Part shown: one piece after another, positions 967 through 57,423 of the stretch
Layout: each line of letters opens with the position of its first letter
Position numbering within the stretch: position 1 is the first letter of the stretch
NCBI RefSeq assembly: GCF_963921235.1
Contig: NC_086108.1
Coordinates: 620,001 to 684,000, forward strand
Reading direction: 5' to 3'
DNA from: Mobula hypostoma
Lineage: Eukaryota
Length of the DNA: 64,000 nt
Notes under the pieces: generated by a model
What the model was told of the DNA's origin: nothing
Databases searched by the model: none
Seen by the model: the letters and a program-made list of their open reading frames with translations, nothing else
Position numbers and translations under genes: made by a program

Positions 967-1842
967 TATGGTGGGAGTTCATCGATGTTTCTGTAATCCA
1001 TTGAATCCACTGTACAGAGGAGTGGCCTGTACAGCCTCACCCTTTGAGAGGCTTTCACCCTCATCAACCTTCCAGCCTTGTACTCTTTTCCCTTCCCTCA
1101 CCTTCATATTCCGGCTTCTTTCCCCTACTTTTCCAGTCCTGAAAAAGGGACTTGGCTCAAAACATCAACTCTTTATTCCTTTTTATCCTCCAGTATTTCA
1201 AAGGTTCATTTATTAGCAAATTGTACAACTCTGAAATTCTTCTTCTCCAGGTAGCCATGAAATCAAGAAAGAAAAGACCATTAATCCCTCCTCCCCGCAC
1301 AAAGAACACACAAAAATGGAACAGACACATTGAGTCGCAAATCCTCCTCCCCCACACTCAAAAAAACGAGAAAGATTAGGCAAAAAATACAGAATACAAA
1401 AAAATCATAAGACTAAAAAAGTTCACATCCAAAACACGGAAAACTTGGGCAACATTCTCCCTCCCCATGGCAGAGCAATCTCACCTGCGATAAAAAGGCA
1501 GTATTTTGTGTATGTTCCACCTGCAAGATTGGTAATGGTTTTAAAATACCTCTGATTCCTGTCAACTATTGTTATCTCTGTTGAAGGCTTGAAGAGAAAG
1601 GTGGACAAAATCGGGAGGCTGCAGAAGGTGTCCATGGATGATGGAATATCAGCCTGGAAAGTGGTGGAGTCAGCAGAGGATGAGTACGTAGTCACCCAGG
1701 CAGGTTAAATCTTTCCCAAACGGCATGAGAAAAGCAGCAAAAGAGGCGGAAAAGTGGGAAAGTGTACAACGTAGTTCCAGGATCCAAAAATGTATTGGTT
1801 GTAACCAAGAACAGAAGAAAGGAGCAAGAAGGGGCCACTCAC

Positions 1843-1961
1843 CATCAAATGTTGCCCTTCCAATAACATCACTTTTCCTCTCTTCCCATTTTCCGTTCCC
1901 GTCCATTGACTTTGACCCCAAATTGGTTTCACCCAAACGAGCCTCCTCAGTCCTCAGTGAA
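1843..1961 (-). CDS. Putative internal exon of an unidentified minus-strand gene
   Basis: Acceptor ttccctctcaactattcAG, donor ATG|GTGAGT. 119 nt, open frame SLRTEEARLGETNLGSKSMDGNGKWEERKSDVIGRATFD (phase 2 in, phase 1 out). Non-repeat sequence; no homology recognised. Confidence 0.35.
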
Positions 1962-2065
1962 CTGAATAGTTGAGAGGGAAGAGAGCTCCATCATTTATGA
2001 GCCTCCTCAGACCTCTGTGAACTGAATAGTTGAGGGGGGAGAGAGAGTTCCATAGTTTATGAGCC
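1939..2065. repeat. ~59-bp tandem duplication (2 copies plus partial)
   Basis: GAGCCTCCTCAG..GTGAACTGAATAGTTGAG.GGG..GAGAG..CCAT..TTTAT is repeated. Confidence 0.85.
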
Positions 2066-2145
2066 TTTAATTAAGAAAAGTAAAAAAAACTCAATGACAA
2101 GCCTTCTGTTCTTGGTACAATTGACCAGATTTTCATTTTCTCTTT

Positions 2146-4819: not shown

Positions 4820-5685
4820 TTCCCCACTACTAAGCACATCTTTCCCTCTCCACCCCGTTCCACTTTCCGCAGGGATTGATCCCTCCGCGACTCACTTATC
4901 CGCACGTCCATCCCCACTGATCTCCCACCTGGCACTTATCCCTGTAAGCGTAAGTGCTACACCTGTCCCTACACCTCCTCTCTTGCCACCATTCAGGGCC
5001 CCAAACAGTCCTTCCAGGTGAGGCAACACTTCACTTGTGAGTCTGCTGGGGTCATCTATTGCATCCAGTGCTCCCGGTGCGGCCTCCTCTACATCGGTGA
5101 AACCCGACGCAGATTGGGGGACCGCTTGATCGAGCACCTCCACTTCGTCCGCCACAACAGACAGGATCTCCTGGTAGCCACCCAATTCAACTCTGCTTCC
5201 CACTTCAACTCTGCTTCCCACTCCCATTCAGTTATGTCCATACATGGCCTCCACTACTGCCATGATGAGGCTAAACTCAGGTTGGAGGAGCAACACCTCA
5301 TATACCATCTAGGTAGTCTCCAGCCCCTTGGTATGAACACAGAATTCTCCAACTTCTGGTAATTTCCTCCCCCTCCCTTCCTCTATCCCTATTTCACATC
5401 ACCTCCCTCATAGTTCCGCCTCCTTCTACTACTACTGCGCATTGTTCTCCTGCCAATCACCTCCCTGCTTCCCCTCCCCCACCCCTTTGTCTTTCAAATT
5501 ACTGTTTTTTTCAACTACCAGCATTCTTCAAATCCTCCCCAAAGTTCTTCCTTCAGTCCTGATGAAGGGTTTTGGCCCGAAACGTCGACTAATCTTTTCA
5601 ACTGATGCTGACTAACCTGCTGAGTTCCTCCAGCGCATTGTGAGAGTTCCTTTGACAACAGCATCTGCAGATTATTTTGTGTTAA
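4820..5685 (+). mobile_element. Penelope-like element 3' end: GIY-YIG endonuclease plus terminal repeat
   Basis: ORF 5018-5362 (VIYCIQCSRCGLLYIGETRRRLGDRLIEHL..RLEEQHLIYHLGSLQPLGMN), preceded by CKRKCYTCPY. Confidence 0.9.
5555..5590 (+). ncRNA. Minimal type I hammerhead ribozyme motif, intact core
   Basis: AGTC-CTGATGA-A-GGGT[TTTG]GCCC-GAAA-CGTC-GACT: stem I AGTC/GACT, stem II, and an ACGT palindrome in place of stem III. Predicted cleavage after C5586. Confidence 0.8.
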
Positions 5686-6740: not shown

Positions 6741-9700
6741 CATAGAACATAGAACATAGAATAGTACAGCACAGTACAGGCCCTTTGGTCCACATTGTTG
6801 TGCTGACCCTCAAACCCTGCCTCCCACATAACCCCCCACCTTAAATTCCTCCATATACCTGTCTAGTAGTCTCTTAAACTTCACGGGTGTATCTGCCTCC
6901 ACCACTGACTCAGGCAGTGCATTCCACGCACCAACCACTCTCTGAGTAAAAAACCTTCCTCTAATATCCCCCTTGAACTTCATACCCCTTAACTTAAAGC
7001 CATGTCCTCTTGTATTGAGCAGTGGTGCCCAGGGGAAGAGGCGCTGGCTATCCACTCTATCTATTCCTCTTATTATCTTGTACACCTCTATCATGTCTCC
7101 TCTCACCCTCCTTCTCTCCAAAGAGTAAAGCCCTAGCTCCCTTAATCTCTGATCATAATGCATACTCTCTAAACCAGGCAGTATCCTGGTAAATCTCTCC
7201 AATGCTTCCGCATCCTTCCTACAGTGAGGTGACCAGAACTGGACACTGTACTCCAAGTGTGGCCGAACCAGAGTTTTATAGAGCTGCATCATTACATCGC
7301 GACTCTTAAACTCTATCCCTCGACTTATGAAAGCTAATACCCCATAAGCTTTCTTAACTACCCTATCCACCTGTGAGGCAACTTTCAGGGATCTGCGGAC
7401 ATGTACCCCCAGATCCCTCTGCTCCTCCACACTACCAAATATCCTACCATTTACTTTGTACTCTGCCTTGGAGTTTGTCCTTCCAAAGTGTACCACTTCA
7501 CACTTTTCCGGGTTGAACTCCATCTGCCACTTCTCAGCCCACTTCTGCATCCTATCAATGTCTCTCTGCAATCTTTGACAATCCTCTACACTATCCACAA
7601 CACCACCAACCTTTGTGTCATCTGCAAACCTGCCAACCCACCCTTCTACCCCCACATCCAGGTCGTTAATAAAAATCACGAAAAGTAGAGGTCCCAGAAC
7701 TGATCCTTGTGGGACACCACTAGTCACAACCCTCTAATCCAAATGTACTCCCTCCACCACCACCCTCTGCCTTCTGCAGGCAAGCCAATTCTGAATCCAC
7801 CTGGCCAAACTTCCCTGGATCCCATGCCTTCTGACTTTCTGAATAAGCCTACCACGTGGAACCTTGTCAAATGCCTTACTAAAACCCATATAGATCACAT
7901 CCACTGCACTACCCTCATCTATATGCCTCGTCAGCCCCTCAAAGAACTCTATCAGGCTTGTTAGACACGATCTGCCCTTCACAAAGCCATGCTGACTGTC
8001 CCTGATCAGACCACGATTCTCTAAATGCCCATAGATCTTATCTCTAAGAATCTTTTCCAACAGCTTTCCGACCACAGACGTAAGGCTCACTGGTCTATAA
8101 TTACCCGGACTATCCCTACTACCTTTTTTGAACAAGGGGACAACATTCGCCTCCCTCCAATCCTCCGGTACCATTCCCGTAGACAATGAGGACATAAAGA
8201 TTCTAGCAGCGGCTCAGCAATCTCTTCCCTCGCCTCGTGGTGCAGCCTGGGGAATATTCCGTCAGGCCCCAGCGACTTACCCGTCCTAAGGTATTTTAAT
8301 AACTTCAACACCTCCTCTCTCTTAATATCAACATGCTCCAGAATATCAACCTCACTCATATTGTCCTCACCGTCATCAAGTTCCCTCTCATTGGTGAATG
8401 CGCGGTTGGGAATCTTCCAGAGGGAAGGCCTCAAAATCCCCGGCTTTGCCTGCTGTTGGCGACCAAGATTGAGGTCGAATCGCTCGGACAGAGATGGCGC
8501 TCAGTACTCGGTGTCGGAGAGCTGATTCGGAGGCTCGAAGTTTTCGGATGACTCAGAGACGGATTGTGGTCGGGCATGGCAGGGAGAGTTTTTCTTCCTT
8601 CTCCCGTCTGCGTGAGATGTGGGACATTTGAGAAACTTTGAACTTTACTGTGCTCACGGACTTCTTCATCAAGTTATGGTATTGTTACACTGTTGTAACT
8701 ATATGTTATAATTATGTGGTTTTGTCAGTTTTTTAAGTCTTGGTCTGTCCTGTGTTTTGTGATACCACACCGGAGGAAATATTGTATCATTTCTTAATGC
8801 ATGCATTACTAAGTGACAATAAAAGAGGACTGCGTGTCTTCATAATCTAATCTAAATATTCATTGAGGACCTCGCTCACTTCCACAGCCTCCAGGCACAT
8901 CTTCCCACCTTTATCTCTAATTGGTCCTACCTTCACTCCTGTCATCCTTTTGTTCTTCACATAATTGAAGAATGCCTTGGGGTTTTCCTTTACCCTTCTC
9001 GCCAAGGCCTTCTCATGCCCCCTTCTTGCTCTTCTCAGCCCCTTCTTAAGCTCCTTCCTTGCTTCCCTATATTCCTCAATAGACCCATCTGATCCTTGCT
9101 TCCTAAACCTCATGTATGCTGCCTTCTTCCACCTGACTAGATTTTCTACCTCACTTGTCACCCATGGTCCCTTCATCCTACCATTCTTTATTTCCTCACC
9201 GGGACAAATTTATTCCTACCATCCTGCAAGAGATCTCTAAACATCGATCACATGTCCATAGTACATTTCCCTGCAAAAACATCATCCCAATTCACACCTG
9301 CAAGTTCTAGCCCTGTAGTCTCATAATTTGCCCTTCCCCAATTGAAAGTTTTCCTGTCCTTTCTGATTCTATCCTTTTCCATGATAATGCTAAAGGCCAG
9401 GGAGCAGTGGTCACTGTCCCCCAGATGCTCACCCACTGAGAGATCTGTGACCTGACCTGATTCATTACCTAATACTAGATCTAGTATGGCATTCCCCCTG
9501 GTCGGCCTGTCAACATACTGTGACAGGAATCTGTCCTGGACACACTTAACAAACTCTGTCCCATCCAAACCTTTGGAACTAATCAGGTGCCAATCAATAT
9601 TAGGGAAATTAAACTCACCCATGATAACAACCCTGTTATTTTTGCACCTTTCCAAAATCTGCCTCCCAATCTGCTCCTCTGTATCTCTGCTGCTACCAGG

Positions 9701-10497
9701 GGGCCTATAGAATACCCCCAATAGAGTAACTGCTCCCTTCCTGTTCTTGACTTCCACCCATATTGACTCAAAAGAGGATCCTGCTACATTACCCACCCTT
9801 TCTGTAGCTGTAATAGTATCCCTGACCAGTAATGCCACCCTTCCTCCTCCCCTTTTTCCGCCCTCTCTATCCCTTTTAAAGCTCTGAAATCCAGGAATAT
9901 TGAGAATCCATTCCTGCCCTGGTGCCAGCCAAGTCTCTGTAATGGCCACTACATCATAATTCCATGTATGTATCCAAGCTCTCAGTTCATCACCTTTGTT
10001 CCTGATGCTTCTTGCATTGAGGTACACACATTTCAGCCCTTCTACCTTACTGTCTTTACACCATTTATTCTGATTCTCTTTTCTCAAAGCCTCTCTGTAT
10101 GTTAGATCTGGCTTTACTCCATGCATTTCTTTCACTGCTCTATCTCTCTGGGTCCCATCCCCCTCGCAAATTAGTTTAAACCCTCCCGAACCATGCTAGC
10201 AAACCTACCTGCAAGGATATTGCTCCCCTCGAGTTCAGGTGCAACCCATCCAATCTGTACAGGTCCCACCTTCCCCAGAAGAGATCCCAATGATCTAAAA
10301 ATCTAAAACCCTGCTCCCTGCACCAACTCCTCAGCCACGCATTCAACTGCCATCTCCTTCAATTCTTACCATCACTATCACGTAGCACTGGCAGCAATCC
10401 TGAGAACGCCACCCATGACGTCCTGTTCTTCAGCCTTCTGCCTAGTTCCCGAAACTCACACTTCAGGACCTCATCCCTCTTCCTGCCTATGTCGTTG
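6741..10497 (-). mobile_element. CR1 LINE with ORF1 esterase C-terminus and frameshifted ORF2 (APE endonuclease + RT)
   Basis: ORFs 9248-10135 (YLNARSI, VAITETW, YRPP, SDH), 8847-9176, 7734-8195 (NYRPVSLTS) and 6810-7727 ([16 protein letters not shown]). SGNH-like DGLHLN at ~10230-10260. (TTCTATG)n tail at ~6741-6760. Confidence 0.95.
8400..8855 (+). mobile_element. 5'-truncated non-autonomous retroposon with (AATCT)n tail, inserted in CR1
   Basis: Interrupts CR1 between EVLNEY and FTNER. Its 3' end TGACAATAAAAGAGGACTG..CATAATCT is shared with ~46215-46250 and ~52360-52402. Confidence 0.7.
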
Positions 10498-11545
10498 ACA
10501 TCTCCTGACATCTCCTCTATACCTACCTCCAGGCATCTTAAAACTGTGTCCTCTCATGTTAGCCATTTCAGCCCTGGGAAAAAGCCTCTGACTATCCACA
10601 TGATCAATGCCTCTGATCATCTTATACACCTCTATCAGGTCACCTCTCATCCTCCGTCGCTCCAAGGAGAAAAGGCCAAGTTCACTCAACCTATTCTCAT
10701 AAGGCACACCCTCCAATCCAGGCAACATCCTTGCAAGTCTCCTCTGCACCCTTTCTATAGTTTCCACATCCTTCTTGTAGTGAGGTGACCAGAACTGAGC
10801 ACGGTACTCCGAGTGGGGTCTGACCAGGGTCCTATATAGCTGCAACATTACCTCTCGGCTCTTAAACTCAATCCCACTGTTGATAAAGGCCAATGCACCA
10901 TATGCCTTCTTAAACACAGTCAACCTGCACAGCAACTTTGAGTGTCCTATGGACTCGGACCCCAAGATTCCTCTGATCCTCCACACTACCAAGAGTCTTA
11001 CCATTAATACTATATTCTGCCATCATATTTGTCCTACCAAAAGGAACCACCTCACATATATCTGGGTTTAACTCCATCTGCCACTTCTCAGCCCAGTTTT
11101 GCATCCTATCGATGTCCCGCTGTAACCTCTGACAGCCCTCCACATGATCCACAAAGGTTATAAAAGACCTGGATGAGAAAGTGGAGGGATGGGTTTGTAC
11201 ACCTTTGTGTCATTACCAGATTTACTAACCCATCCCTCCACTTCCTCATCCAGGTCTCTTATAAAAAATCACAAAGAGTAGGGGTCCCAGAACAGATCCC
11301 TGAGGCACACCACTGGTCACCGACCTCCATGCAGAATGTGACCCATCTACAACCACTCTTTGCCTTCTGTGGGCAAGCCAGGTCTGGATCCACAAAGCAA
11401 TGTCCTCTTGGATCCCATGCCTCCTTACTTTCTCAATAAGCCTTGCATGGGTACCTTGTCAAATGCCTTGCTGAAATCCATATACACTACATCTACAGCT
11501 CTACCTTCATCTATGTTTGTAGTCACATCCTCAAAAAATTCAATC

Positions 11546-11962
11546 ACTCAATCACACACACCAACACATACAACATACACAATCACTCAGACATGCTCCC
11601 ACACACAGACAGGCACACATACTAATGCACTCTCTCACACACAACCACACACACTCACTCACACCCACACTCACACACACATACAGACACACACAAAAAC
11701 ACTCCTCACAGACACACACAGAAACCCACACATGCACACACGCGCACGCACAGACCGAACCACACACTTTTATCACACATACTCACTCACACACCAACAC
11801 ACACAGTCACAGACACATACTCATAGACAAACAGACATACACACTCACAACTCCACACACACACCTAAACATACACATACACTCACATATACACACACAC
11901 ACCCACATACACACACAAATTCACACACCACACACATACACAGACATACAGACAGACAGACA

Positions 11963-12001
<39 letters not shown>

Positions 12002-12421
12002 CAAGCGCACACACACTGCACACACATATTACACACACGCACACCCCACACCACACATATACACTGCCACACAGGCACATACAGAGACACACACACACTT
12101 ACACATTCAGTCACATACTCACTCACTCACTCACTCACACACACTCACACAACTGCAGACAAAAACACACACACGAATCACACAAACACACATGCACAAC
12201 CCACACCTACACATACCCACACAAACACACACACATTCACTAACACACACACTCACATACACACTCACTCACTCACACAATTGCTGCCAAAAACACACAT
12301 GCACAAATCACACAAACACACTGATACTCACACACACTACACACACACAATCACACACACACACACACATAGATATACGTATACCCACACACAGACACGC
12401 ACACATTCAGACACCATACAC

Positions 12422-12475
<54 letters not shown>

Positions 12476-12770: not shown

Positions 12771-12806
<36 letters not shown>

Positions 12807-19234: not shown

Positions 19235-19429
19235 ACATGAGATTGGAATCTGGAGCAAGACATAAAGGTACTGAAGGAACTCAGCATGTTAAGTAGTGAC
19301 TGTGGAGGAAAATGGACAGTCAACACCTTTGGGTCCAGACAAAAGATCTCAATCCAAAATGTTGACTGTTCATTTCCCTGATCGACTGAGTTCCTCCAAA
19401 TTACAATCTGTGCCACTTTTATGGAAATA

Positions 19430-25079: not shown

Positions 25080-26310
25080 ACCTCACTACTGATACATCTG
25101 GCTCTATCTGACCCACTCAAACTGCAGTGAATTATGATCACTGCCACCCAAGGGTTCCCTTACGTTAAGCTCCCTAATCAAATATGGTTCATTCCACAGC
25201 ACTCAATCCAGTATTGCCTGTACCCTTGTGGGCTCAACCACAAAATGCTATAAAAAGCCATCTTGGAGGCATTCTACACAAGAGATTCTGCAGATGCTGG
25301 AATTCCAAAGCAACACAAAATGTTGGAGGAACTTGGCAGATCAGGCAGCATCTGTGGAAATGAATGAACAGATGACATTTCAAGACAGACCCTTCAGGAC
25401 TGAAAAGAAGGGAGAAGACCCCAGAATAAAAAGGCAAGTGGAAGGGAAGAAGGATGGTTGGTGATGGGTGAAACCAGGCGTGTGGGAAAGGTAAAGGGTC
25501 AGAGAAGAATCTGATAGGAGAAGAGAGTGGATCGTAGAAGAAAGGGGAGGAGGAGAGGACCCAAGGGGAGGTGACTGGCCAGTAATAAGGGAAAAGAAGC
25601 CACAGTGGGGAATAGAAGAAGAGAGGAGGGGGAGGGAAATCATTTTACCAAAAGGAGAAATCAATATTCATGCCATCAGGTTGGAGGCTACCCAGACAGA
25701 ATATAAAGTAACACACACAAAATGCTGGAGGAACTCAGCAGGCTAGACAACATCTATGGAGAGGGGTAAACAGTCGATGTTTTGGGCCGAGACCCTTCTT
25801 CAAGACTAGAAGATAAGGTGAGGGTGGCCTCATTTTGGCACAGAAGGAGGGCGTGTACTGGCATGTTGGAATGGAAATGATAATCAGAACTAAAATGTTT
25901 GGCCACAGGGAAGCTGCACTTAGGCAGGTGGAGCAGGAGTGCTCGACGAAGCCGTCCTCAACTTACAACAGCTCTCACCAGTGTAGAGAGGTGAGGAAGG
26001 AGCCATCTTGTAGGCATTCTACAAATTCCCTCTCTTGAGATCCAGCATCAACATGATTTTCCCAAACTACCTGCATATTCAAATCCCCCACGACTACCAC
26101 AACATTTCCCTTATTACATGCCATTTCTATTTCCTTTTGAAATTTATATCCCGCATGTTGACTACTGTTTGGAGGCCTGTATATAACTTCCATCAGGGTC
26201 TTTCTACCCTTGCAGTTTCTTATCTCTACCCACAAGGATTCAACATCTTCTGATCCTATATCACCACTTTCTAAGGATTTGATTTCATTTTTTACCAACA
26301 GAGCCACCCA
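25080..26310 (-). mobile_element. CR1 endonuclease fragment with a PLE insert (25279-26000)
   Basis: ORF 25975-26307 (ESLWVEIRN..YRPP). The PLE-derived insert is flanked by a 23-bp duplication. Confidence 0.8.
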
Positions 26311-28864: not shown

Positions 28865-29288
28865 TTCTCTAACTTCCGTTAATGCCCCACCTCTCCCTCG
28901 TACCCCATCCGTTATTTATTTATATACACACATTCTTTCTCTCTCTCTCCTTTTTCTCCCTCTATCCCTCTGACTATACCCCTTGCCCATCCTCTGGGTT
29001 TCCCCCCCTCCCCCTTTTCTTTCTCCCTGGGCCTCCTGTCCCATGATCCTCTCATATCCCTTTTGCCTATCACCTGTCCAGCTCTTGGCTCCATCCCTCC
29101 CCCTCCTGTCTTCTCCCATCATTTTGGATCTCCCCATCCCCCTCCCCCTCCCCTTCCCACTTTCAAATCTCTTACTAACTCTTCCTTCAGTTTGTCCTGA
29201 CCAAGGGTCTTGGCCTGAAGCGTCGACTGTACTTCTTCCTAGAGATGCTGCCTGGCCTGCTGCATTCACCAGCAGCTTTGATGTGTGT
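28865..29288 (+). mobile_element. Solo PLE terminal repeat with degenerate hammerhead
   Basis: Close copy of 57070-57487. TGCAGATG(C/T)TG is duplicated at 28854-28864 and 29289-29299. Confidence 0.85.
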
Positions 29289-32329: not shown

Positions 32330-33910
32330 AAAGTTCAAAGTAGATTTATTATTGAAGTATTTATGTCACTGTATACAACTCTGAGATTTATTTTCTTTCG
32401 GGCATTCACAGTAGATGTAAAGAAATACAATAGAATCAATGAAAAACAACACAAACACACAAAGACTGACAAACAACCAATGTGCAAATGAACACAAACT
32501 GCAAATAATTAAATAAATAAGCAAACAAACAAATAATATTGAGAATGCAAGTTGTCAAGTCCTTGAAAGTGAGCCTGTAGGTTGTGGCAAACACAAGAAA
32601 ATCTGCAGATGCTGGAAATTCAAGCAACACACACAAAATGCTGGTAGAACACAGCAGGCCAGGCAGCATCTATAGGAAGAGGTACAGTCGACGTTTTGGG
32701 CCGAGATGTCAATTGTACCTCTTCCTATAGATGCTGCCTGGCCTGCTGTGTTCTACCAGCATTTTTGTGTGTGTTGCTGTAGGTTGTGGAATCAGTTCAG
32801 TGTTGAGGTGAGTGAAGTTATCTACGCCAGTTTGGGAACCTGATGGTGTAACTGTCCCTGAACCTGGTGGTGTGGAACCCAAGGCTCCAGTACCTCCTTC
32901 CTGATGGTAGCAGTGAGAAGAGATCATGGCCTGGATGGTGGTGGTCCTTGATGATCGATACTGCTTCCTTCTAGATATGCTCACAGGTGGCGAGGGTTTT
33001 TCCTGTAATGGTCTGGACTGCATCCACTACGTTTTGTGTATTTTCCATTCATGGGAATTGGTGTATCCATGATACAACCAATCATGATACTCTCTACTGT
33101 GCATCTATAGCAGTTCATCAAAGTTTTGGATGACTTACCAAATCTGTGCATACTTCTAAGAAAGTAGAGATCTTCTTTATAATGGCATTTACGTACAAAA
33201 TCTCTGAAATTACAACACCAAGGAATTTACAGTTAATGACCATTTCCACCCCCGATCACCTGATGAGGATTGGCTTATGGACCTCTGGTTTCCTTCTCCT
33301 GGTCAATAATCTGCTCTTTGGTTTTGCTGACATTGAGTGAGAGGTTTTTTTTTGGCACCCCTCAACCAGATTTTCAATCTCCTCCTATATTGCGATTTGT
33401 CACCAACTTTGATTTGGCCCAATGGTGTCATCAGCAAACTTAAATATGGCATTGGAGCTGTGCTTAGCCACAGAGTCATAAGTATAAAGGAAGCAGAGCA
33501 GGGGGCTAAGCACACAGCCGTGTTGCGCACTTGCACTGATGGAGATTGTAGAGGAAGTATTGTTGCCAATCTGAACTGACTGGGGTCTACAAGTGAGGAA
33601 ATCCGGGATCCATTTGCACAAGGGGTTATCATGGCCTAGGTCTTGGAGCTCATTGATTAGTTTTGAGGGGTGATAGTATGTAGTCAATGTGGAGGATCCT
33701 GATGTATGCATCTTCACTGTCTAGATGTTCCAGGACTGAGTGAAAAGCCAATGAAATGACATCTGCTGTTGTGACGAGGTAGACAAATTGGAGCAGGTCC
33801 GAGTCACTCCGTGGGGAAGGGTTGATCTGTTTCATGATCATCCTCGCAGAGCAGCTCATCACAGAGAATCCAAGTGCTACTGGATGATAATCATTGAGGC
33901 AAGTCACCAC
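32330..33910 (-). mobile_element. Decayed Rex1/Babar-like LINE
   Basis: LNDYHPVAL, WIPDFLTCRPQSV, HGCVLSPLL, FKFADDT. Confidence 0.8.
32588..32776. mobile_element. Miniature inverted PLE-end insertion (hairpin) with 13-bp TSD
   Basis: Arms ~32623-32692 and ~32706-32778 are reverse complements. CTGTAGGTTGTGG at 32575-32587 and 32777-32789. Confidence 0.85.
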
Positions 33911-34269
33911 ATAAATACTTTATCAGACAACGTAGGAGCCTTTATACTTTAAGATATTGAATGTGGAATGTGCTGGTTCAGTACCATTGTAACTGCACAG
34001 GGGAAGACAATACATAAACATTCACCTTACGTAATTCTTCTTACTCTGAGTCCTGAAGAAGGGTCTCAGCCCAAAACTGTTTATTCAGTTTCATAGATCT
34101 GACCTAAGGTGCTGAGTTCCTCCAGCATTTTGTGTGTGTTCCCCTGAATTTTCAGCATCTATAAAATCTCTTGTCTATATAATTCTTTTTTATATCTATT
34201 TTTGTCATTTTTTTGAATATTATTTATTTTGCATGTTGTGTTCTGACTAACACACAACAGCAATTGCTA

Positions 34270-47265: not shown

Positions 47266-50200
47266 TGTAGGTTGAGTACCTGTTATCCAAAAAACTCCAA
47301 AATCTGAATTTCTTTCAAGTGCTGACATGATGTCACAGATGGAAAATTCCATAAGACGCCGGGAAGGTTCCCAGGTGATGCGCAGGTCTCTGCACACCAC
47401 AGACAGTTCTGAGAAGTGATCTCTCTTATGTAATCAACAGAAGTTAATGGAAAAAATAGAAAAGCTCTACATAAAGCGAAAAATGAAGAATCCAATGGTG
47501 TTTTGAAAGTGTTGATCTGTCCGTTCTGGAGTGAACATACAGTTGCAAGAAAAAGTTGCTGAACCCTTTTGCAATTCCCTAGTTTTCTGCATTAATTACT
47601 CAGAAAATGTCTGATTTTCATCTAATTATCAATAATAGACAAACACAATCTGCCTAAACTAATAGCACACAGACAATTGTAGTCGTCATATTGAATACAT
47701 TGTCTAATCATTCACAGTTCATGCTGGAAAAAATATGTGAAACCTTGTATTTAATAACTGGTAGAACTTCCTTTAGCAGCAATAACCTCCACCAAATGTT
47801 TCCTCTAGCTACTGATCAGACTTGCACAACAACAAGGAGGAATTTTAGACCATTCCTCCATACAAAACTGTTTCAATTCCTCAATATTTTTGGGATATCT
47901 TCCATGAACATCCCTCCTCAGGTCATGCCACAGCATCTCAATTGGGTTAAGGATCACTCAGCCAGTGGTTTCTTCCGCAGCGTCCTCCCATGAACACCAT
48001 TCTTATTCAGTGTTTTTCTTATAGTGGACACATGAACAAAGACTTCAGCAAGTTCTAAAGATTTCTGCTGATCTTTTGTTTTGTTACATAGAACATAGAA
48101 ATCTACAGCACATTACAGGCCCTTCGGCCCACGATGTTGTACCGATCATGTAACCTACTCTAGAAACTGCCTAGAATTTCCCTACCGCGTGGGTCTCTAT
48201 TTTTCTAAGCTCCTTTTACCTATCTAAAATTCTCTTAAAAGACCCTATTGTGTCTGCCTCTACCACCTTTGCTGGCAGTGCATTCCATGCACCCACCACT
48301 CTCTGTGTGAAAAACATACCTCTGACATCCCCCGGTACCTACTTCCAAGCACCTTAAAACTATTCCCCCTCATGTTAGCCATTTCAGCCCTGGGAAAAAG
48401 CCTCTGGCTATCCACATGATCAATGTCTCTCATCATATTGTACACCTCTGTCACGTCACTTCTCATCCTCCGACACTCCAAGGAGAAAAGGCCAAGTTCA
48501 CTCAACCTAAGGCATGCTCTCCAATCCAGGCAACATTCTTGTAAATCTCCTCTGCACCCTTTCTATAGTATCCACATCCTTCCTGTTACCCTTGGGTTCT
48601 TTTTCACCCCCTTCAGCATTGCAGGTTGTGCTGTTGGTGTGATCTTTGCAGGATGCCCGCTCCTTGTGAGAGTAACAACAGCAGTGAGTTTCCTCCGTTT
48701 GTAGATTATTTCTTTTGCCTTGGACTGGTGAACACTTAGGTCCTTAGAAATGCTTTTGTAGCATTTTCCAGCTTCACGCATCTCTACAATTCTTCTAATG
48801 TACCCTGATAGTTGGTGCATATAAACAGATCTTTCTTGAGAAGAGCAGGCTCTGTTAGTAATCTGACTTTATATACGGCTGGGCACCGAATTAAATGGAA
48901 TTGAATTGATTTTATTTCTTACATCCTTCATAACATGAGGCCTAAAAATCCTTACGTTACATCTCTGTCTAAATGTGCAATTTATAATAATTTATAATAA
49001 ATTGTATGTACAACAGGACAGTCAATCTAACATAGAATTATCAGCATGAATTTGTCAGTCTGATGGCCTGATGGAAGAAGCTGTTCCGGAGCTTGTTGGT
49101 CCTGGCTTTTATGCTGCTAGAACAGTTTACGGTTGGGGTGACTGGGGTCCCCAGTGATCCTTCAGGCCCTTTTTACACACCTGTCTTTGTAAATGTCCTG
49201 AATAGTGGGAAGTTCACATCTACAGATGTGCTGGGCTATCTGCACCACTCTCTGCAGAGTACTGCGATTGAGGAGAGTACAGTTCCCATACCAGGCAGTG
49301 TTGCAGCCAGTCAGGATGCTCTCAATTGTACCTGTGTAGAAAGTTCTTGGGATTTGAGGGGCCATAGCTTTTGCAGAAGGCATTACCCCAGAGGTTCGCC
49401 TACTTTTTTGAACTTAGACTGTGATTGTTCAAATGGTGTACTCAGTATTGCTGAGAAGTACAATTGTTTGTATGTTATTAGTTTAGGCAAATTGTGTTTG
49501 TCAGTTATTGTGACTAGTGCATATCAGACCACATTATGAATAATTAATGCAGAAAATTAGGTAATTGCAAAGGGTTCACATACTTTTTCTTGCAACTGTA
49601 TGCTGCTAAACAGCATGCTGACTAGATAAAAGCAAAGATCTATCTTGACAAACTAAAAATTGAAGGTAATTGTGAATACTCAGCAGGCTGGTTGCAGAAA
49701 TTTGAGGAAAGACATTAAATTTTAATTCTGATTCCCATTCTGACATGTCAGTGTGTGGCCTCCTCTTGTGTCATGATGAGGCCACCCTCAGGATGGTGGA
49801 GCAACACCTTATATTTCATCTGGATAGCCTCCAACCCGATGGCATGAATATCAATTTCTCCTTCCGGTAAACACATTTCCAGCCTCCCACTCCTCCTCTA
49901 TTCCTCATGCTGACCTTTTACCTCTTCTCACCTGCCTCTTGCTTCCCCTAGGTGTCCTCCTCCTTCCCTTTCTCGTACAGTCCACTCTCCTCTCCTGTCA
50001 GATTCCTTCTTCTCCGGCCCTAGACTTTTCCCACCAACCTGGCTCCACCCGCCACCTTCCAGCTAGCCTCCTTTCCCTCCCCCCCCCCCATCTTTTTATT
50101 CTGACTTCTTCCCCCTTCCTTCCCAGTCCTGAAGAATGATGCCGGCCCAAGCATCGACTGTTTATTCCTCTCCCTAGATGCTGCCTGACCTGCTGAGTCC

Positions 50201-50848
50201 CTCCAGCATTTTGTCTGTTGATGGTTGATCTAAAATTTTATAACATCTGCTGATCACAAAAATCTAGCAACAGAACAAGTTTACGGTGCTGATAGTTGTT
50301 ATAACTTACATAATGGCATTACATTTTTAAAGTATGACTGATGAAAATCTAACACCAGAATGCTGATTATTTTTATACGCTACATAAAACCTACAAAAAA
50401 GTAAAATACAAACACACCCAGAAAGCTGGAGGAACTCAGCAGGCCAGGAAGCATCTATGTAAAAGAGTACAGACGACATTTCAGGCCAAGACCCTTCTTC
50501 AGGACTACAAATACAGTGTATTGTAACCTTTTAATCAAAACACTGCATTATAGGTAGAGACCAAAAGCCTGCTGTTGTGTGTTATTGTTCAACAGCTGAT
50601 TCCGGTATTCTTCCGATGGTGCTGTGCTGCTTTTGTTACCCTGCACACTTTATATTTTCATTGCATTAATGGTATGTAATGTTCTTTACTGTTAAGTATA
50701 TATCTGTGATGAACAAGTGTAAGACAAAGTCTGCTTACCCATAGCACATAAACTCACAGTTGGAAATGATGGCTATCTCTTTATATATTCCAAAATCCAA
50801 AACACTTCCCCCCCCCCAAGCATTTCAGATAAAGTGTACTCAACCTAC
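47266..50848. mobile_element. Tigger4-like DNA transposon hosting Tc1 and PLE inserts
   Basis: Ends TGTAGGTTGAGTACCTGTTATCC and GATAAAGTGTACTCAACCTACA are inverted repeats. Confidence 0.65.
47540..49598 (-). mobile_element. Tc1-like transposon with nested CR1 (~48088-48582) and Rex1 (~48890-49360)
   Basis: TA TSD; TIR CAGTTGCAAGAAAAAGT. ORF 48563-48820 (IVEMREAGKCYKSISKDL..RSGHPAKIT). The CR1 insert is flanked by TGTTAC. Confidence 0.88.
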
Positions 50849-52460: not shown

Positions 52461-54632
52461 ATCAACCCAAATCCATCCTTTAAGTCGGACCTAGTCACGC
52501 TCCTATCTCGAAATAAGAAGGCTCTGACTTCAACCCCTCCAGCTGTCAACTGAGTCTGAAAGGCATGAAACAGAGTCCTTGCATATATATGAAAGATTCC
52601 ACATAACTGTTTGAAAGAAGTTCTTTTTCCCCGACTGTTATTTAAACCTTGCTGAGTAGTGCTTGGATTATCCAGTCACCATCACATCTGTTTTTAGAAT
52701 CTTGCTGTGCATAGATTGCCTGCCACATTTCATGACTTTGTTATGTGTAAAATGCATTGGGATATTCTGAAAGGGATATAGAAGGTGAGGACTTTTCTGG
52801 GGGACTGATTCGTCAAGCACCTTTGCACCATCCGTCACGAGCGGAACTTCTTGGTAGCCAAATATTTTAATTCTCATTCCCATTCCGATGTGTTGGTCCA
52901 AGGCCTGCTGTTGGGCCAAGATGAAGTCACCCCAAAGGTGGAGGAGTAACACCTTGTATTCTGTCTTGGTAGCCTTCAACTCGATGGCATGAATATTGAT
53001 TTCTCCTGGTAAACAAATTCCACCACCCTCACCCCTCACTCTGACCTTTTACTTCTTCTCACTTTCCTGTCACTTCCCCCGGGTCCCCTCTTCCCCTATC
53101 AGATTCCTTCTTCTCCAGCCCTTGACCATTGCCACTCCCCCGCCCTGCCAGCTTCACTTTCCAGCTAGCCTCCTTCCCTTCCCCTTGCCCCCACCAAATT
53201 GTGTTTGTCTACTGCTGTGACTTGCGGTGAATATCAGACCACATCATGAGAAATTAATGCAGTAATTGCAGAGTTCACAAACTTTTTCTTGCAACTGTAT
53301 GCTGCTTAACAGCATGCTGACCATGAAACAAGCAAAGATCTATCATGACAAACTTAAAATTGAAGGTATGTGTGAATATTCAGCAGGCTGGTTGCAGAAA
53401 TTTAAGGAAAGACATTAAATTTTAATTCTGATTCCCATTCCAACATGTGGGTGTGTGGCCTCCTCTTGTGTCATGATGAGGCCACCCTCAGGATGGTGGA
53501 GCAACACCTTATATTTCATCTGGATAGCCTCCAACCCGATGGCATGAATATCAATTCCTCCTTCCGGTAAACGCATTTCCACCCTCCTCCACTCCTCCTC
53601 TATTCCTCACACTGACCTTTTACCTCTTCTCACCTGCCTCTTGCTTCCCCAGGTCTCCACCTCCTTCCCTTTCTGGTACGGTCCACTCTCCTCTCCTGTC
53701 AGATTCCTTCTCCTCCAGCCCTAGATTTTTCCCACCAACCTGGCTTCACCTATCACCTTCCAGTTAGCCTCCTTCCCCTCCCCCTCCCCCCCCCAGTCCT
53801 GAAGAAGGGTCTTGTCCCAAAAAGTCAACTGTTTATTCACTTGTAAAGATGCTGCCTGACCTGCTGAGTTCCTCCAACATTTTGTGTGTGTTGCTTTGGA
53901 TTTCCAGCATCTGCAGATTTTCTCTTGTTTAGTCTTTTTTAGTATCTGCCCCATCTGTACAACAGTGATTGAAAAATAGAAATTTCGCAGTAAGTCACTG
54001 ACTGGAAAGTGTAATGGGGTTGAGTGTTTTCTTGTCTGAGGCTAAACCAGACTGTTGCAACTTTAATTGTTTTGACTCGCTCCAAGCTGAGCTCTTTGAC
54101 CCTGTGTACTTGCTATTGGCCAAGCCTCTGGAGTTACTTATTCCAACAATCTCCTGGCTGGCCTCCCTCCTTCCGACCTCTGTTATTTAAAAAAAGGCTT
54201 CCAAAACTTGTTGTTTTCATCTTAACTCAAAACAATTCTCTTCCTGCCATCTATCTCCCCCTGTGTTGTCTCCATCATGTAGCAATTTTAAGAAGTTCTT
54301 TTTAAAAAAAACATTTAACAAATAAAGAATAAAGAATGTATAAAAATATAGTCATAACAAAGTACAGCACAGAAACCAGCACTTTGGCCCAACTAGTCCA
54401 TGCCAAACTATTTAAACTTCCTACTCACATCAACCTGCACCAGGACCATAGTCTTCCATAACCCTTCCATCGAGTGGCAGAGCAGACTCCTTGGGCCAAA
54501 AATGACCAAATGCTGCTCCTCTGTCTTAGCACCTAAACAACAGGAATTCTGCAGATGCTGGAAATTCAAGCGACACACATCAAAGTTGCTGGTGAACGCA
54601 GCAGGCCAGGTAGCATCTCTAGGAAGAGGTGC

Positions 54633-54668
54633 AGTCGATGTTTCAGGCCGAGACCCTTCGTCAGGACT
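54633..54668 (-). ncRNA. Minimal hammerhead motif (GUC changed to AUC)
   Basis: Minus strand: AGTC-CTGACGA-A-GGGT[CTCG]GCCT-GAAA-CATC-GACT. Confidence 0.65.
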
Positions 54669-57387
54669 AACTGAAGGAAGAGTGAGTAAGGGATTTGAAA
54701 GTTGGAGGGGGAGGGGGAGATCCAAAATGATAGGAGAAGACAGGAGGGGGAGGGATAGAGCCAAGAGTTGGACAGGTGATAGGCAAAAGGGGATACGAGA
54801 GGATCATGGGACAGGAGGTCTGGGAAGAAAGACAAGGGGGCGGGGGACCCAGAGGATGGGCAAGAGGTATATTCAGAGGGACAGAGGGAGAAAAAGGAGA
54901 GTGAGAGAAAGAATGTGTGCATAAAAATAAGTCACAGATGGGGTACGAGGGGGAGGTGGGGCCTTAGCGGAAGTTAGAGAAGTCGATGTTCATGCCATCA
55001 GGTTGGGGGCTACTCAGACGGAATATAAGGTGTTGTTCCTCCAACCTGAGTGTGGCTTCATCTTTACAGTAGAGGAGGCCGTGGATAGACATGTCAGAAT
55101 GGGAATGGGATGTGGAATTAAAATGTGTGGCCACTGGGAGATCCTGCTTTCTCTGGCGGACAGAGCGTAGATGTTCAGCAAAGCGGTCTCCCAGTCTGCA
55201 TTGGGTCTCGCCAATATATAAAAGGCCACATCGGGAGCACCGGACACAGTATATCACCCCAGTCGACTCACAGGTGAAGTGTTGCCTCACCTGGAAGGAC
55301 TGTTTGGGGCCCTGAATGGTGGTGAGGGAGGAAGTGTAAGGGCATGTGTAGCACTTGTTCCGCTTACACGGATAAGTGCCAGGAGGGAGATCAGTGGGGA
55401 GGGATGGGGGGGGGGGGGACGAATGGACAAGGGAGTTGCATAGGGAGCGATCCCTGCGGAATGCAGAGTGGGGGGAGGGAAAGATGTGCTTAGTGGTGGG
55501 ATCCCGTTGGAGGTGGCGGAAGTTACGGAGAATAATATGTTGGACCCGGAGGCTGGTGGGGTGGTAGGTGAGGACCAGGGGACGACTTTATCCGCTCAGG
55601 GGATCTCCCATCCACTGCTACCAACCTTATAGTTCCCACACCCGCACTTCCCGTTTCTACCTCCTACCCAAGATCCACAAACCTGCCTGTCCTGGCTGAC
55701 CTATTGTCTCAGCTTGCTCCTGCCCCACCGAACTCATTTCTGCATACCTCGACACGGTTTTATCACCCCTTGTTCAATCCCTTCCGACCTATGTTCATGA
55801 CACTTCTCACGCTCTTAAACTTTTCGATGATTTTAAGTTCCCTGGCCCCCACCGCTTTATTTTCACCATGGATGTCCAGTCCCTATATACTTCCATCCCC
55901 CATCAGGAAGGTCTCAAAGCTCTACGCTTCTTTTTGGATTCCAGACCTAATCAGTTCCCCTCTACCACTACTCTGCTCCGTCTAGCGGAATTAGTCCTTA
56001 CTCTTAATAATTTCTCCTTTGGCTCCTCCCACTTCCTCCAAACTAAAGGTGTAGCTATGGGCACCCGTATGGGTCCTAGCTATGCCTGCCTTTTTGTTGG
56101 GTTTGTGGAACAGTCTATGTTCCGTGCCTATTCTGGTATCTGTCCCCCACTTTTCCTTCGCTACATCGACGACTGCATTGGCGCTGCTTCCTGCACGCAT
56201 GCAGAACTCGTTGACTTTATTAACTTTGCCTCCGACTTTCACCCTGCCCTCAGTTTACCTGGTCCATTTCCGACACCTCCCTCCCCTTTCTAGATCTTTC
56301 TGTCTCTGTCTCTGGAGACAGCTTATCTACTGATGTCTACTATAAGCCTACTGACTCTCACAGCTATCTGGACTATTCCTCTTCTCACCCTGTCTCTTGC
56401 AAAAACGCCATCCCCTTCTCGCAATTCCTCCGTCTCCGCCGCATCTGCTCTCAGGATGAGGCTTTTCGTTCTAGGACGAGGGAGATGTCTTCCTTTTTTA
56501 AAGAAAGGGGCTTCCCTTCCTCCACTATCAACTCTGCTCTTAAACGCATCTCCCCCATTTCACGTACGTCTGCTCTCACTCCATCCTCCCACCACCCCAC
56601 TAGGAATAGGGTTCCCCTGGTCCTCACCTACCACCCCACCAGCCTCCGGGTCCAACATATCATTCTCCGTAACTTCCGCCACCTCCAAGTGGAACAAGTG
56701 CTACACATGCCCTTACACTTCCTCCCTTACCACCATTCAGGGCCCCAAACAGTCCTTCCAGGTGAGGCAACACTTCACCTGTGAGTCGACTGGGGTGATA
56801 TACTGCGTCCGGTGCTCCTGATGTGGCCTTTTATATATTGGCGAGACCCGACGCAGACTGGGAGACCGCTTTGCTGAACATCTACGCTCTGTCCGCCAGA
56901 GAAAGCAGGATCTCCCAGTGGCCACACATTTTAATTCCACATCCCATTCCCATTCTGACATGTCTATCCATGGCCTCCTCTACTGTAAAGATGAAGCCAC
57001 ACTCAGGTTGGAGGAGCAACACCTTATATTCCGTCTGGGTAGCCTCCAACCTGATGGCATGAACATTGACTTCTCTAACTTCCGCTAAGGCCCCACCTCC
57101 CCCTCGTACCCCATCTGTTACTTATTTTTATGCACACATTCTTTCTCTCACTCTTCTTTTTCTCCCTCTGTCCCTCTGAATATACCTCTTGCCCATCCTC
57201 TGGGTCCCCCTCCCTGCCCCCCGTCTTTCTTCCCGGACCTCCTGTCCCATGATCCTCTCGTATCCCCTTTTGCCTATCACCTGTCCAGCTCTTGGCTCTA
57301 TCCCTCCCCCTCCTGTCTTCTCCTATCATTCTGGATCTCCCCCTCCCCCTCCAACTTTCAAATCCCTTACTCACTCTTCCTTCAGTT

Positions 57388-57423
57388 AGTCCTGACGAAG
57401 GGTCTCAGCCTGAAACGTCGACT
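57388..57423 (+). ncRNA. Minimal type I hammerhead ribozyme motif, intact core
   Basis: AGTC-CTGACGA-A-GGGT[CTCA]GCCT-GAAA-CGTC-GACT. Predicted cleavage after C57419. Confidence 0.75.

What the first reader, a model, noticed from the sequence alone, without database searches (positions are those of the whole stretch)
1135..57423. Dispersed family of minimal hammerhead ribozymes spread by Penelope-like terminal repeats
Seen: the motif AGTC-CTGANGA-A-GGGT(N4)GCCY-GAAA-CGTC-GACT recurs about 13 times, plus one variant family. Intact cores are at 5555-5590 (+) and 57388-57423 (+); near-intact at 54633-54668 (-). Decayed copies are at ~1135, 19332, 25380(-), 25772(-), 29193, 32686(-), 34049, 50125, 50471(-) and 53795. 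Known: PLEs carry minimal type I hammerheads in which stem III is reduced to a short palindrome (here ACGT), thought to cleave as dimers; an extra A after A9 is a known variant. Inference: at roughly one copy per 5 kb, this genome could hold very many ribozyme-derived loci, some still active.
Basis: partly seen in the sequence, partly recalled or inferred. Interest (0 to 1): 0.8.

Follow-up and report, generated by a model that had tools for sequence, protein, structure and literature searches.

The report
Minimal hammerheads in Penelope-like element tails
The repeated motif is real and is the already described minimal hammerhead ribozyme motif that Penelope-like retrotransposons carry near their 3' ends, here amplified to tens of thousands of intact and roughly half a million decayed copies in a large cartilaginous-fish-like genome.

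Summary
Confirmed. Two pass a full minimal-hammerhead descriptor (5555-5590, 57388-57423), against a mean of 0.01 hits in 100 shuffles. Two more are near-intact and nine are dead, mostly through CpG decay.

The motif lies 200-330 nt downstream of reverse-transcriptase/GIY-YIG endonuclease coding sequence in 7 of 13 copies. That places it in the 3' tails of 5'-truncated Penelope-like elements (PLEs).

The pair 54633(-)/57388(+) forms the two ends of one 2,954-bp PLE insertion. It has an inverted 5'-truncated arm, a 31-nt tail at one end only, and a 12-bp target duplication.

Elsewhere in the genome, one locus shows 197-bp direct repeats, each with the motif, flanking an 885-codon frame.

Anatomy matches the published PLE min-HHR: an extra base after A9, an ACGU palindrome replacing helix III, and a 4-5 bp helix I.

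Genome-wide there are 55,943 exact intact 35-mers. Of these, 44,770 carry G10.1•U11.1 instead of G-C.

Cleavage itself is untested. Covariation, folding energies, insertion 5' ends and RNA data give no support. This is a known kind of element in a new host lineage.

The parts
5555..5590 (+). Complete minimal hammerhead motif: AGUC / CUGAUGA / A / GGGU-UUUG-GCCC / GAAA / CGUC / GACU, with G10.1-C11.1
   Evidence: 0 mismatches; passes descriptor
57388..57423 (+). Complete minimal hammerhead motif of the abundant subfamily, with N7=C and G10.1•U11.1
54633..54668 (-). Near-intact motif. The core is intact; the ACGU palindrome has changed to ACAU.
50471..50506 (-). Near-intact motif. The core is intact; it has AUGU and one helix I mismatch. 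It is a short 5'-truncated tail.
1135..1170 (+). Decayed motif (G8A, G12A, ACAU, G1.1A)
19332..19367 (+). Decayed motif, joined head-to-head with an inverted tail piece at 19239-19340(-)
25370..25401 (-). Decayed motif with a 4-nt deletion. It is the tail of a PLE copy whose endonuclease coding remnants lie at 25654-25710 and 25814-25921.
25772..25807 (-). Decayed motif (C3U, G12A, ACAU) in a short tail copy (25686-25829) that sits between the two coding remnants of the older copy. This looks like a nested insertion.
29193..29228 (+). Decayed motif (G8C, A15.1G) of the abundant subfamily. Endonuclease coding end lies upstream at 28853-29008.
32686..32706 (-). 3' 21 nt of the motif only. The copy starts inside helix II and abuts an inverted tail copy (32708-32778 +).
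34049..34078 (+). Decayed motif (G12A; 6-nt deletion removes the cleavage site)
50125..50159 (+). Decayed motif. Endonuclease coding remnant lies upstream at 49715-49930.
53795..53830 (+). Decayed motif (G12A and others). Endonuclease coding remnant lies upstream at 53415-53651.
54536..57489 (.). One PLE insertion unit. It has an inverted 5'-truncated arm (54536-55582, minus strand) joined head-to-head to the main 5'-truncated copy (55582-57489, plus strand). The arms are 96.6% identical over 803 bp.
54524..54535 (+). Left copy of the 12-bp target-site duplication TCTTAGCACCTA
   Evidence: read directly (reverse complement) and compared
57490..57501 (+). Right copy of the 12-bp target-site duplication TCTTAGCACCTA
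54536..54566 (-). 31-nt 3' extension ('tail') present on the inverted arm only. The right arm stops at 57489.
   Evidence: A one-sided 30-40 bp tail is described for PLEs in PMC8557442 (passages).
54964..55587 (-). Open frame holding the GIY-YIG endonuclease (GVIY...YIGET) with an upstream Cys/His linker
   Evidence: GIY-YIG E 3.1e-4, 21.4 bits, just under the 22.6 cutoff; (92% identity to an uncharacterised ray protein)
55643..57196 (+). RT and endonuclease coding sequence of the main copy, in several frames, with an internal deletion relative to L028
   Evidence: RVT_1 E 2.8e-6, under cutoff
4823..5353 (+). Endonuclease coding end of the PLE copy whose tail carries the 5555 motif
   Evidence: GIY-YIG E 2.2e-4

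Best explanation
These are copies of the minimal type I hammerhead motif (min-HHR) that canonical, endonuclease-bearing Penelope-like retrotransposons carry in the non-coding stretch after their RT/GIY-YIG open frame. That stretch becomes the pseudo-LTR when copies lie in partial tandem.

Shown here:
- the motif and its copy number;
- its fixed place in PLE tails;
- the typical PLE insertion anatomy (5' truncation, inverted 5' arm, one-sided tail, target duplication);
- a pLTR-ORF-pLTR example elsewhere in the genome;
- the fact that the 36-nt block is the island subfamilies share, while both flanks differ.

Inferred from published work on this class, not tested here: a PLE transcript holding two copies, or two transcripts, pairs the ACGU palindromes into an intermolecular helix III and swaps the helix I strands. 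This builds a double hammerhead that cuts after GUC (between 5586 and 5587, and between 57419 and 57420). The reaction is slow and probably helped by the element's own protein. Its role would be processing of longer-than-unit PLE RNA.

Almost all genomic copies are dead-on-arrival truncations that then decay neutrally. Decay is fastest at the five CpGs inside the motif.
For: Motif and chance.

PLE context: RVT_1 and GIY-YIG hits. tblastn places EN/RT coding directly upstream of 7 of 13 copies. The GVIY...YIGET motif is present.

Single insertion: inverted arms, a 12-bp TSD and a one-sided 31-nt tail.

pLTRs: L028 has 197-bp direct repeats, 99.5% identical, each with the motif, 3,513 bp apart around an 885-codon open frame.

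Scale: 71 scored matches from 138,887 first-look candidates, with frames up to 1,043 codons.

Fit to the published class (PMC4209133): extra nucleotide between 9 and 10.1, palindromic 15.2-16.2, helix I of 4-5 bp, location in PLTRs, many single truncated copies, and pairs on opposite strands.

Conservation:
- In 57 copies sampled without regard to the motif, mean column identity is 0.88 for non-CpG motif columns and 0.92 for core columns. It is 0.60 upstream and 0.73 just downstream. N7 is the least conserved motif column at 0.35.
- In contigs of four public runs, only N7, a loop 2 base and 11.1 vary at 10% or more inside 57388-57423. Unlike sequence starts in many contigs exactly at 57388 (91/70/2/20 contigs) and 57424 (91/71/0/15).
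- blastn similarity between subfamilies is confined to coding sequence and an 83-nt block around the motif.
Against: - No Rfam hammerhead model matches, even at E<=10. RF00163 finds nothing in the genome, though that search rang nowhere, controls included.
- Covariation is weak: 86.9% of cells paired against 85.8% in shuffles (32 of 500 shuffles as high).
- There is no bias towards pair-keeping changes in helix II. The G•U-forming 11.3 C>T occurs 662 times and the pair-breaking 10.3 G>A 885 times.
- ViennaRNA prefers a rod that pairs GANG with CGUC (-10.1 kcal/mol) over the hammerhead secondary structure (-7.9). It also prefers an extended duplex (-25.1) over the double hammerhead (-14.7).
- The most abundant lineage has G10.1•U11.1 (44,770 against 11,173).
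- Of 100 listed tails, 97 run on upstream through the cleavage site, 3 break off further upstream (2 at about h50, 1 at h56), and 0 start at the site.
- Published: low in vitro activity (PMC4209133). In the anole PLE, cleavage needed the protein, ribozyme mutants still inserted, and no RNA-seq ends were found at the cut site (PMC11167929, passages).
Confidence: 0.82

Rival explanations
1. A hammerhead-derived relic or passenger. The block is kept in active PLE lineages for a reason other than self-cleavage, for example as a rod-like hairpin bound by the PLE protein, or as part of an internal promoter in the pLTR. The ribozyme would then be inactive or irrelevant in this genome.
For: The predicted MFE fold is a rod, not the three-way junction. 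The dominant lineage replaced G10.1-C11.1 by G•U and still reached at least 44,770 intact copies. No insertion 5' ends lie at the cleavage site. A second, non-hammerhead block of the tail (profile columns 81-120) is about as conserved, 0.84 against 0.88. Published: ribozyme mutants of an anole PLE still insert (PMC11167929). PLE clades without hammerheads proliferate well, and hammerheads 'may simply parasitize PLEs' (PMC8557442).
Against: A hairpin does not explain why the unpaired core letters (CU, the two A after G8, GAAA) stay fixed among subfamilies while N7 and loop 2 vary freely. That pattern is exactly the hammerhead's. The same core recurs in PLEs of distant phyla with unrelated stems (PMC4209133). 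G•U still pairs.
Confidence: 0.13
2. The copies are spread mainly by a short non-autonomous element (a retrozyme- or SINE-like derivative of the PLE tail), not by the PLE's own truncated insertions.
For: Six of 13 window copies are short tails with no coding sequence of their own upstream. One tandem pair of about 460-bp units, each with the motif, exists at L029. A preprint reports non-LTR retrozymes related to PLE pLTRs in vertebrates, including one cartilaginous fish (10.64898/2026.07.22.740005, Results read).
Against: The short copies start at scattered points (profile positions 3 to 90), as 5' truncation gives, not at one fixed 5' end. Seven of 13 continue upstream into endonuclease coding sequence. 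The L029 units also hold endonuclease coding remnants.
Confidence: 0.04
3. Chance resemblance of an abundant repeat to the hammerhead consensus.
For: A loose descriptor hits random sequence about once per 6 Mb (0.01 per 64 kb), so a 3.5-Gb genome would hold hundreds of chance hits.
Against: The motif sits in the same element class, at the same place, with the same unusual extras (bulged base after A9, palindrome instead of helix III) as the published class. Its variable positions are the ones a hammerhead leaves free.
Confidence: 0.01

Closest known systems
Min-HHRs of metazoan Penelope-like elements (Cervera & de la Pena 2014, PMC4209133; parts 1-2 of the text read)
   Same: Type I topology. 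CUGANGA...GAAA...UH core. One extra nucleotide between A9 and G10.1. No helix III but a palindrome at 15.2-16.2. Helix I of 4-5 bp. Location in PLE terminal repeats. Thousands of mostly single, truncated copies, with pairs on opposite strands 100-700 bp apart.
   Different: Helix II is only 4 bp (GGG-U with a 4-nt loop), against 6-8 bp described for fluke and fly. The majority subfamily has G10.1•U11.1 where the paper stresses a highly conserved G10.1-C11.1. Copy number (55,943 exact intact 35-mers) exceeds the roughly 4,000 (coelacanth) and 9,000 (Xenopus) reported. Cartilaginous fishes are not mentioned in that paper's main text; its supplements were not read.
Hammerhead of the anole Poseidon element PAc (PMC11167929; abstract and passages read)
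   Same: A vertebrate EN+ PLE with a hammerhead in the pLTR. 3' ends of insertions are variable ('tail'). Copies here end at two places about 31-35 nt apart.
   Different: In PAc the open frame starts inside the hammerhead. In L028 the first Met of the frame lies about 580 nt after the cleavage site. Protein-assisted cleavage is shown for PAc and untested here.
Canonical type I hammerheads (Rfam RF00163), such as those of newt and Schistosoma satellites and animal non-LTR retrozymes
   Same: Same catalytic core, same open helix I, and the same idea of acting as a double hammerhead through a weak, palindromic helix III.
   Different: There is no helix III hairpin at all and no loop 1/loop 2 tertiary contact. 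There is no match to the Rfam model. The copies are dispersed in a coding retrotransposon, not arranged in short tandem arrays; only one tandem pair was seen (L029).

Membership tests
PLE minimal hammerhead (min-HHR) | Conserved core C3 U4 G5 A6 N7 G8 A9 ... G12 A13 A14 A15.1 ... U16.1 H17 | tested here: met
   Met in full at 5555-5590 and 57388-57423. The core is also intact at 54633 and 50471. The other nine window copies are mutated.
PLE minimal hammerhead (min-HHR) | One unpaired nucleotide between A9 and G10.1 | tested here: met
   There is an A at that place. The column is at least 90% A in 39 aligned copies (column 19).
PLE minimal hammerhead (min-HHR) | Highly conserved G10.1-C11.1 pair | tested here: inconclusive
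   G-C at 5555 and in 11,173 genomic 35-mers. G•U at 57388, 54633 and 29193 and in 44,770 genomic 35-mers.
PLE minimal hammerhead (min-HHR) | No stable helix III; palindromic 15.2-16.2, so that two copies can pair | tested here: met
   A15.1-C-G-U16.1 = ACGU. The dimer structure can be drawn without conflict, but ViennaRNA does not favour it.
PLE minimal hammerhead (min-HHR) | Short helix I (4-5 bp), open (type I) | tested here: met
   AGUC/GACU, plus a fifth pair that is U•G in one subfamily and C-G in another.
PLE minimal hammerhead (min-HHR) | Lies in the repeats that flank an RT/GIY-YIG frame | tested here: met
   L028 has direct 197-bp repeats, each with the motif, around an 885-codon frame. 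In the window only the 3' side and an inverted arm are seen.
PLE minimal hammerhead (min-HHR) | Self-cleavage after H17, as a dimer | not testable with these tools
   No RNA run on record. The runs laid are contigs, which cannot show RNA ends.
Penelope-like element, canonical EN+ type | Single frame with RT followed by a C-terminal GIY-YIG endonuclease and a Cys/His linker | tested here: met
   RVT_1 and GIY-YIG hits, both just under Pfam cutoffs. The order RT then EN is seen on 55643-57196. GVIY...YIGET and CKRNKCYTCPY...H are present. No RT phylogeny was made.
Penelope-like element, canonical EN+ type | Insertion anatomy: 5' truncation, partial tandem (pLTR), adjacent inverted 5'-truncated copy, 30-40 bp tail at one end | tested here: met
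   Insertion 54536-57489 with a 12-bp TSD, inverted arm and 31-nt one-sided tail. pLTR in L028. The feature list is from PMC8557442.
Rfam Hammerhead_1 (RF00163) | Score at or above the family's gathering threshold | tested here: not met
   No hammerhead family among the window's hits, even at E<=10. This is expected for a motif without helix III.
Animal non-LTR retrozyme | Head-to-tail arrays of short non-coding units, each with a hammerhead | tested here: inconclusive
   None in the window. One two-unit tandem (about 460 bp, 90% identical) at L029, but its units hold endonuclease coding remnants.

The most novel reading that the evidence does not exclude
The lineage that amplified most (about 42,000 of the 44,770 intact U11.1 copies are inherited, not decayed) carries G10.1•U11.1 in place of the G10.1-C11.1 pair otherwise near-universal in hammerheads. 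The mirror CpG decay product, G12A, occurs only 2,750 times. So either a protein-assisted, dimeric PLE hammerhead tolerates a wobble next to the A9/G10.1 metal site, or a PLE with a crippled ribozyme out-competed its relatives. The second case would be natural in vivo evidence that the hammerhead is dispensable, or even costly, for PLE retrotransposition.
Probability: 0.3. Interest if true: 0.5.

Novelty: new member of a known kind. Interest (0 to 1): 0.3.

Why it matters
It confirms that a reader without tools recognised a real ribozyme-class motif and its carrier. For the field it adds a cartilaginous-fish-like genome to the hosts of PLE hammerheads. The copy number is several-fold above the published vertebrate figures.

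The genome also offers a built-in comparison for the open question of what these ribozymes do. It holds two large sister populations (C11.1, 11,173 copies; U11.1, 44,770 copies) and many open PLE frames. One could ask whether the ribozyme matters for PLE spread by comparing cleavage and transcript ends of the two forms.

For genome annotation, the motif block and its tail are a compact marker. By extrapolation from 204 kb, they mark on the order of 0.5-1 million PLE fragments.

Tried and rejected
- **Rfam.** Gathering thresholds gave 0 hits. At E<=10 there were 7 weak hits, none a hammerhead. RF00163 over the whole genome gave 0 matches from 73 scored of 380,711 candidates, and the control genomes rang nowhere, so this is uninformative.
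- **Covariation on 39 copies.** Weak.
- **Pair-keeping versus pair-breaking transitions at 10.3/11.3.** 662 against 885, so no structural bias. The planned 10.2/11.2 pair of counts was dropped.
- **Folding.** Neither the monomer nor the dimer hammerhead is favoured by nearest-neighbour energies.
- **Insertion 5' ends as a footprint of cleavage.** Of 100 listed tails, none starts at the cut site. In my 72 profile hits only L018:7749(-) starts there, with 3-nt microhomology.
- **RNA evidence.** No RNA holder is listed. The four runs laid are contigs with 'RNA' only a guess, so they say nothing on expression or RNA ends.
- **Tail downstream of the motif.** RNAalifold found no supported structure (-2.55 kcal/mol, 0 compensated pairs).
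- **1135 and 5555 as the two pLTRs of one element.** Rejected. The two are only 78% alike over 37 nt and belong to different subfamilies.
- **Earlier notes of this scan.** Nothing found.
Full report
**1. Observation**

The motif is there.
- The strict pattern has 7 matches at up to 3 mismatches, and none in 100 dinucleotide-preserving shuffles.
- A profile built from the motif and the roughly 100 nt that follow it finds 18 places in the window.
- I wrote a general minimal-hammerhead descriptor: CUGANGA, an optional bulge, helix II of at least 3 bp, GAA, an A-palindrome-U, H, and a 4-bp helix I. It passes two places, 5555-5590 and 57388-57423. Shuffled windows gave a mean of 0.01 hits.
- From alignment A2, 54633-54668(-) and 50471-50506(-) keep the core but have lost the ACGU palindrome (ACAU, AUGU). 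32686-32706(-) is only the 3' 21 nt. The other eight carry lethal changes such as G12A or G8A, or deletions.
- For N7 = C, the motif holds five CpG dinucleotides (profile columns 35-36, 45-46, 50-51, 55-56, 58-59). Most of the damage is of the CpG-to-TpG/CpA kind.

**2. What carries the motif**

- Pfam finds GIY-YIG at 4880-5362(+) and 54964-55587(-), and RVT_1 at 55700-56293(+). All three are just under the curated cutoffs.
- The 54964-55587(-) frame reads GVIYCVRCSRCGLLYIGET, preceded by a Cys/His cluster. It is 92% identical to an uncharacterised protein of a ray.
- Relatives found, used as tblastn queries, place RT/endonuclease coding sequence directly upstream of, and on the same strand as, seven of the 13 copies: 5555, 25370-25401(-), 29193, 50125, 53795, 54633(-) and 57388. 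The motif starts 200-330 nt after the frame ends. The other six are shorter truncations.
- An RT followed by a C-terminal GIY-YIG endonuclease defines canonical Penelope-like elements (PMC4209133; PMC8557442).

**3. Anatomy of one insertion**

- 54567-55365(-) and 56687-57489(+) are 96.6% identical inverted arms.
- The plus-strand copy runs from 55582 to 57489. It aligns to a full-length genomic copy at 95-98% identity, with one internal deletion.
- The minus-strand arm goes 31 nt further at its 3' end, to 54536.
- Immediately outside both ends stands the same 12-mer, TCTTAGCACCTA, at 54524-54535 and 57490-57501.
- So 54536-57489 is one insertion with a target-site duplication, an adjacent inverted 5'-truncated copy, and a 'tail' at one end only. 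PMC8557442 describes exactly this as typical of PLEs (passages).
- The two best-preserved subfamily-A motifs of the window are therefore the two outward-facing ends of one event.

**4. The wider genome**

- The window lies in a 3.48-Gb assembly.
- Exact intact 35-mers (helix I, core, helix II, any N7, any loop 2) number 11,173 with C11.1 and 44,770 with U11.1. The reversed-pattern controls gave 0.
- I took 140 kb at fixed coordinates, without regard to the motif. The tail profile hits it 39 times, and 18 of these hits hold the whole motif region. Adding the window gives 57 tails and 31 motif regions in 204 kb.
- By crude extrapolation from two chromosome ends, that is on the order of 1 million tails and 0.5 million motif regions.
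- A PLE protein query gives 71 scored matches from 138,887 first-look candidates, with open frames up to 1,043 codons.
- In one of four loci fetched (L028), 197-bp direct repeats (99.5% identical), each with the motif, lie 3,513 bp apart around an 885-codon open frame. A short inverted piece sits at the 5' end. This is the pLTR-ORF-pLTR form.
- In the window itself no direct pair of terminal repeats is present.

**5. Is it a hammerhead?**

Read directly, the sequence is: AGUC (helix I) / CUGAUGA / A / GGGU-UUUG-GCCC (helix II) / GAAA / CG / UC, then the cut, then GACU (helix I).

PMC4209133 lists four features that were not imposed by its search descriptor. Compared with this motif:
- A nucleotide between 9 and 10.1: present.
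- Palindromic 15.2-16.2: present (ACGU).
- A conserved G10.1-C11.1 pair: present in the minority, G•U in the majority.
- Families with covariation: weak here (see section 6).

The pattern of variation fits.
- Among 57 copies sampled without regard to the motif, non-CpG motif columns average 0.88 identity and core columns 0.92. The 24 columns upstream average 0.60 and the next 18 downstream 0.73. N7, the one free core position, is the least conserved motif column at 0.35.
- Contigs of four public runs laid on 57200-57520 vary at 10% or more inside the motif only at N7 (57396), loop 2 (57407) and 11.1 (57411). Many contigs turn unlike the window exactly at 57388 and at 57424. So other subfamilies share just this block.
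- blastn between two subfamilies aligns only coding sequence and an 83-nt block around the motif.

**6. Results that do not support catalysis**

- Rfam's hammerhead models do not match.
- Pair counts barely exceed shuffles: 86.9% against 85.8%, with 32 of 500 shuffles as high.
- At 10.3/11.3, the G•U-forming change (662 copies) is not commoner than the pair-breaking one (885 copies). This is what neutral decay of dead copies predicts.
- ViennaRNA prefers a rod pairing GANG with CGUC, and for two strands an extended duplex, over the hammerhead structures.
- I listed 100 tails anchored only on sequence 3' of the cut site. By my own reading of the list, 97 continue upstream into the motif, three break off further upstream, and none starts at the cut. 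So the templates of these insertions were uncut there, or were recircularised as PMC4209133 proposes.
- No RNA run is on record for this sequence.
- Published work agrees that the class is weak. Activity in vitro is low and seen only in dimers (PMC4209133). In an anole PLE, cleavage needed the element's protein, ribozyme mutants still inserted, and no RNA-seq ends were seen at the cut (PMC11167929).

**7. The U11.1 lineage**

- C11.1-G12 is a CpG. If U11.1 were decay alone, its mirror product G12A should be about as common. G12A is found 2,750 times, U11.1 44,770 times.
- In the 100 listed tails I count, by eye, 60 T, 36 C and 1 G at 11.1, with 3 not readable as the motif. The neighbouring CpG shows symmetrical decay: 11 AUGU and 10 ACAU.
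- So U11.1 was inherited from a founder, and that lineage became the largest. The window's 57388, 54633 and 29193 copies belong to it.
- This may be a founder effect. It neither proves tolerance of the wobble nor dispensability of the ribozyme. It does set up a clean comparison.

**8. Comparison and verdict**

This is the min-HHR class of Penelope-like elements, spread mostly as dead 5'-truncated tails.
- It differs from published examples in three ways: a short helix II (4 bp), the G•U majority, and scale.
- The main text of PMC4209133 does not mention cartilaginous fishes; I did not read its supplements. A 2026 preprint reports PLE-related retrozymes in one chondrichthyan.
- The paper by Lünse and colleagues on dimeric cleavage of small PLE hammerheads is known to me only from recall, and from its title appearing in the text of other papers. 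I did not read it.
- Statements about the roles of G12, G8 and the A9/G10.1 metal site rest on general knowledge of hammerheads, not on a call.

Noticed in passing
window 32590-32785; 19239-19404; L018:7650-7856; L018:2467-2703; L006:1429-1665: Tail copies are often joined head-to-head as inverted pairs. The junction lies inside or just upstream of the motif (profile positions about 11-59). Among the 100 tails listed, 7 pairs lie within about 110 bp on opposite strands. In one search some pairs of complete motifs are only 2-50 nt apart. This fits the known PLE habit of an adjacent inverted copy, but the clustering of junctions near the motif is unexplained.
   Followed up: partly
window 57464-57501 versus 54536-54580; L016:5585-5674; L018:7765-7855: Copies end at two alternative 3' points about 31-35 nt apart: after ...GTGTGTYGCTTG, or after ...CCAGCATCTGCAGAAT.... 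This recalls the two internal RT start sites and the 'tail' described for PLEs.
   Followed up: partly
tail profile columns 77-122, e.g. window 57438-57483: A second block of the tail (AGATGCTGCCTG.CCTGCTG...CCAGCA...TGTGTGTTGC) is about as conserved among subfamilies as the hammerhead block (0.84 against 0.88 mean identity). It has no supported secondary structure. It may be the RT recognition or start region.
   Followed up: partly
window 25654-25921: A roughly 140-nt tail copy (25686-25829, minus strand) sits between two contiguous pieces of endonuclease coding sequence of an older copy. This looks like a PLE tail nested in a PLE.
   Followed up: partly
window 52776-53196: A PLE copy (coding remnant at 52776-53006) loses similarity at 53196, exactly where its motif should begin. 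It is followed at once by another 5'-truncated copy (53195-53929).
   Followed up: no
L029:10-927 (genome C1): Two head-to-tail units of about 460 bp (90% identical), each with an endonuclease coding remnant, the motif and a tail. This is a direct pair that one transcript could carry.
   Followed up: partly
window 11147-11275: A near-perfect long hairpin gives sub-threshold hits on both strands to unrelated microRNA families (MIR408 at 49.5 bits against a threshold of 64; mir-3129). It is probably an inverted-repeat element, not a microRNA.
   Followed up: no
window 13991-16231 (+); 9248-10195 (-); 6810-7733 (-); 22202-22909 (-): LINE-type frames with an apurinic-type endonuclease (Exo_endo_phos) and RVT_1 above Pfam cutoffs. 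These are non-LTR retrotransposons unrelated to the PLEs.
   Followed up: no
window 11342-13288 (+); 36188-37822 (+): Long open frames (648 and 544 codons, stop to stop) with no Pfam match at E<=0.01.
   Followed up: no
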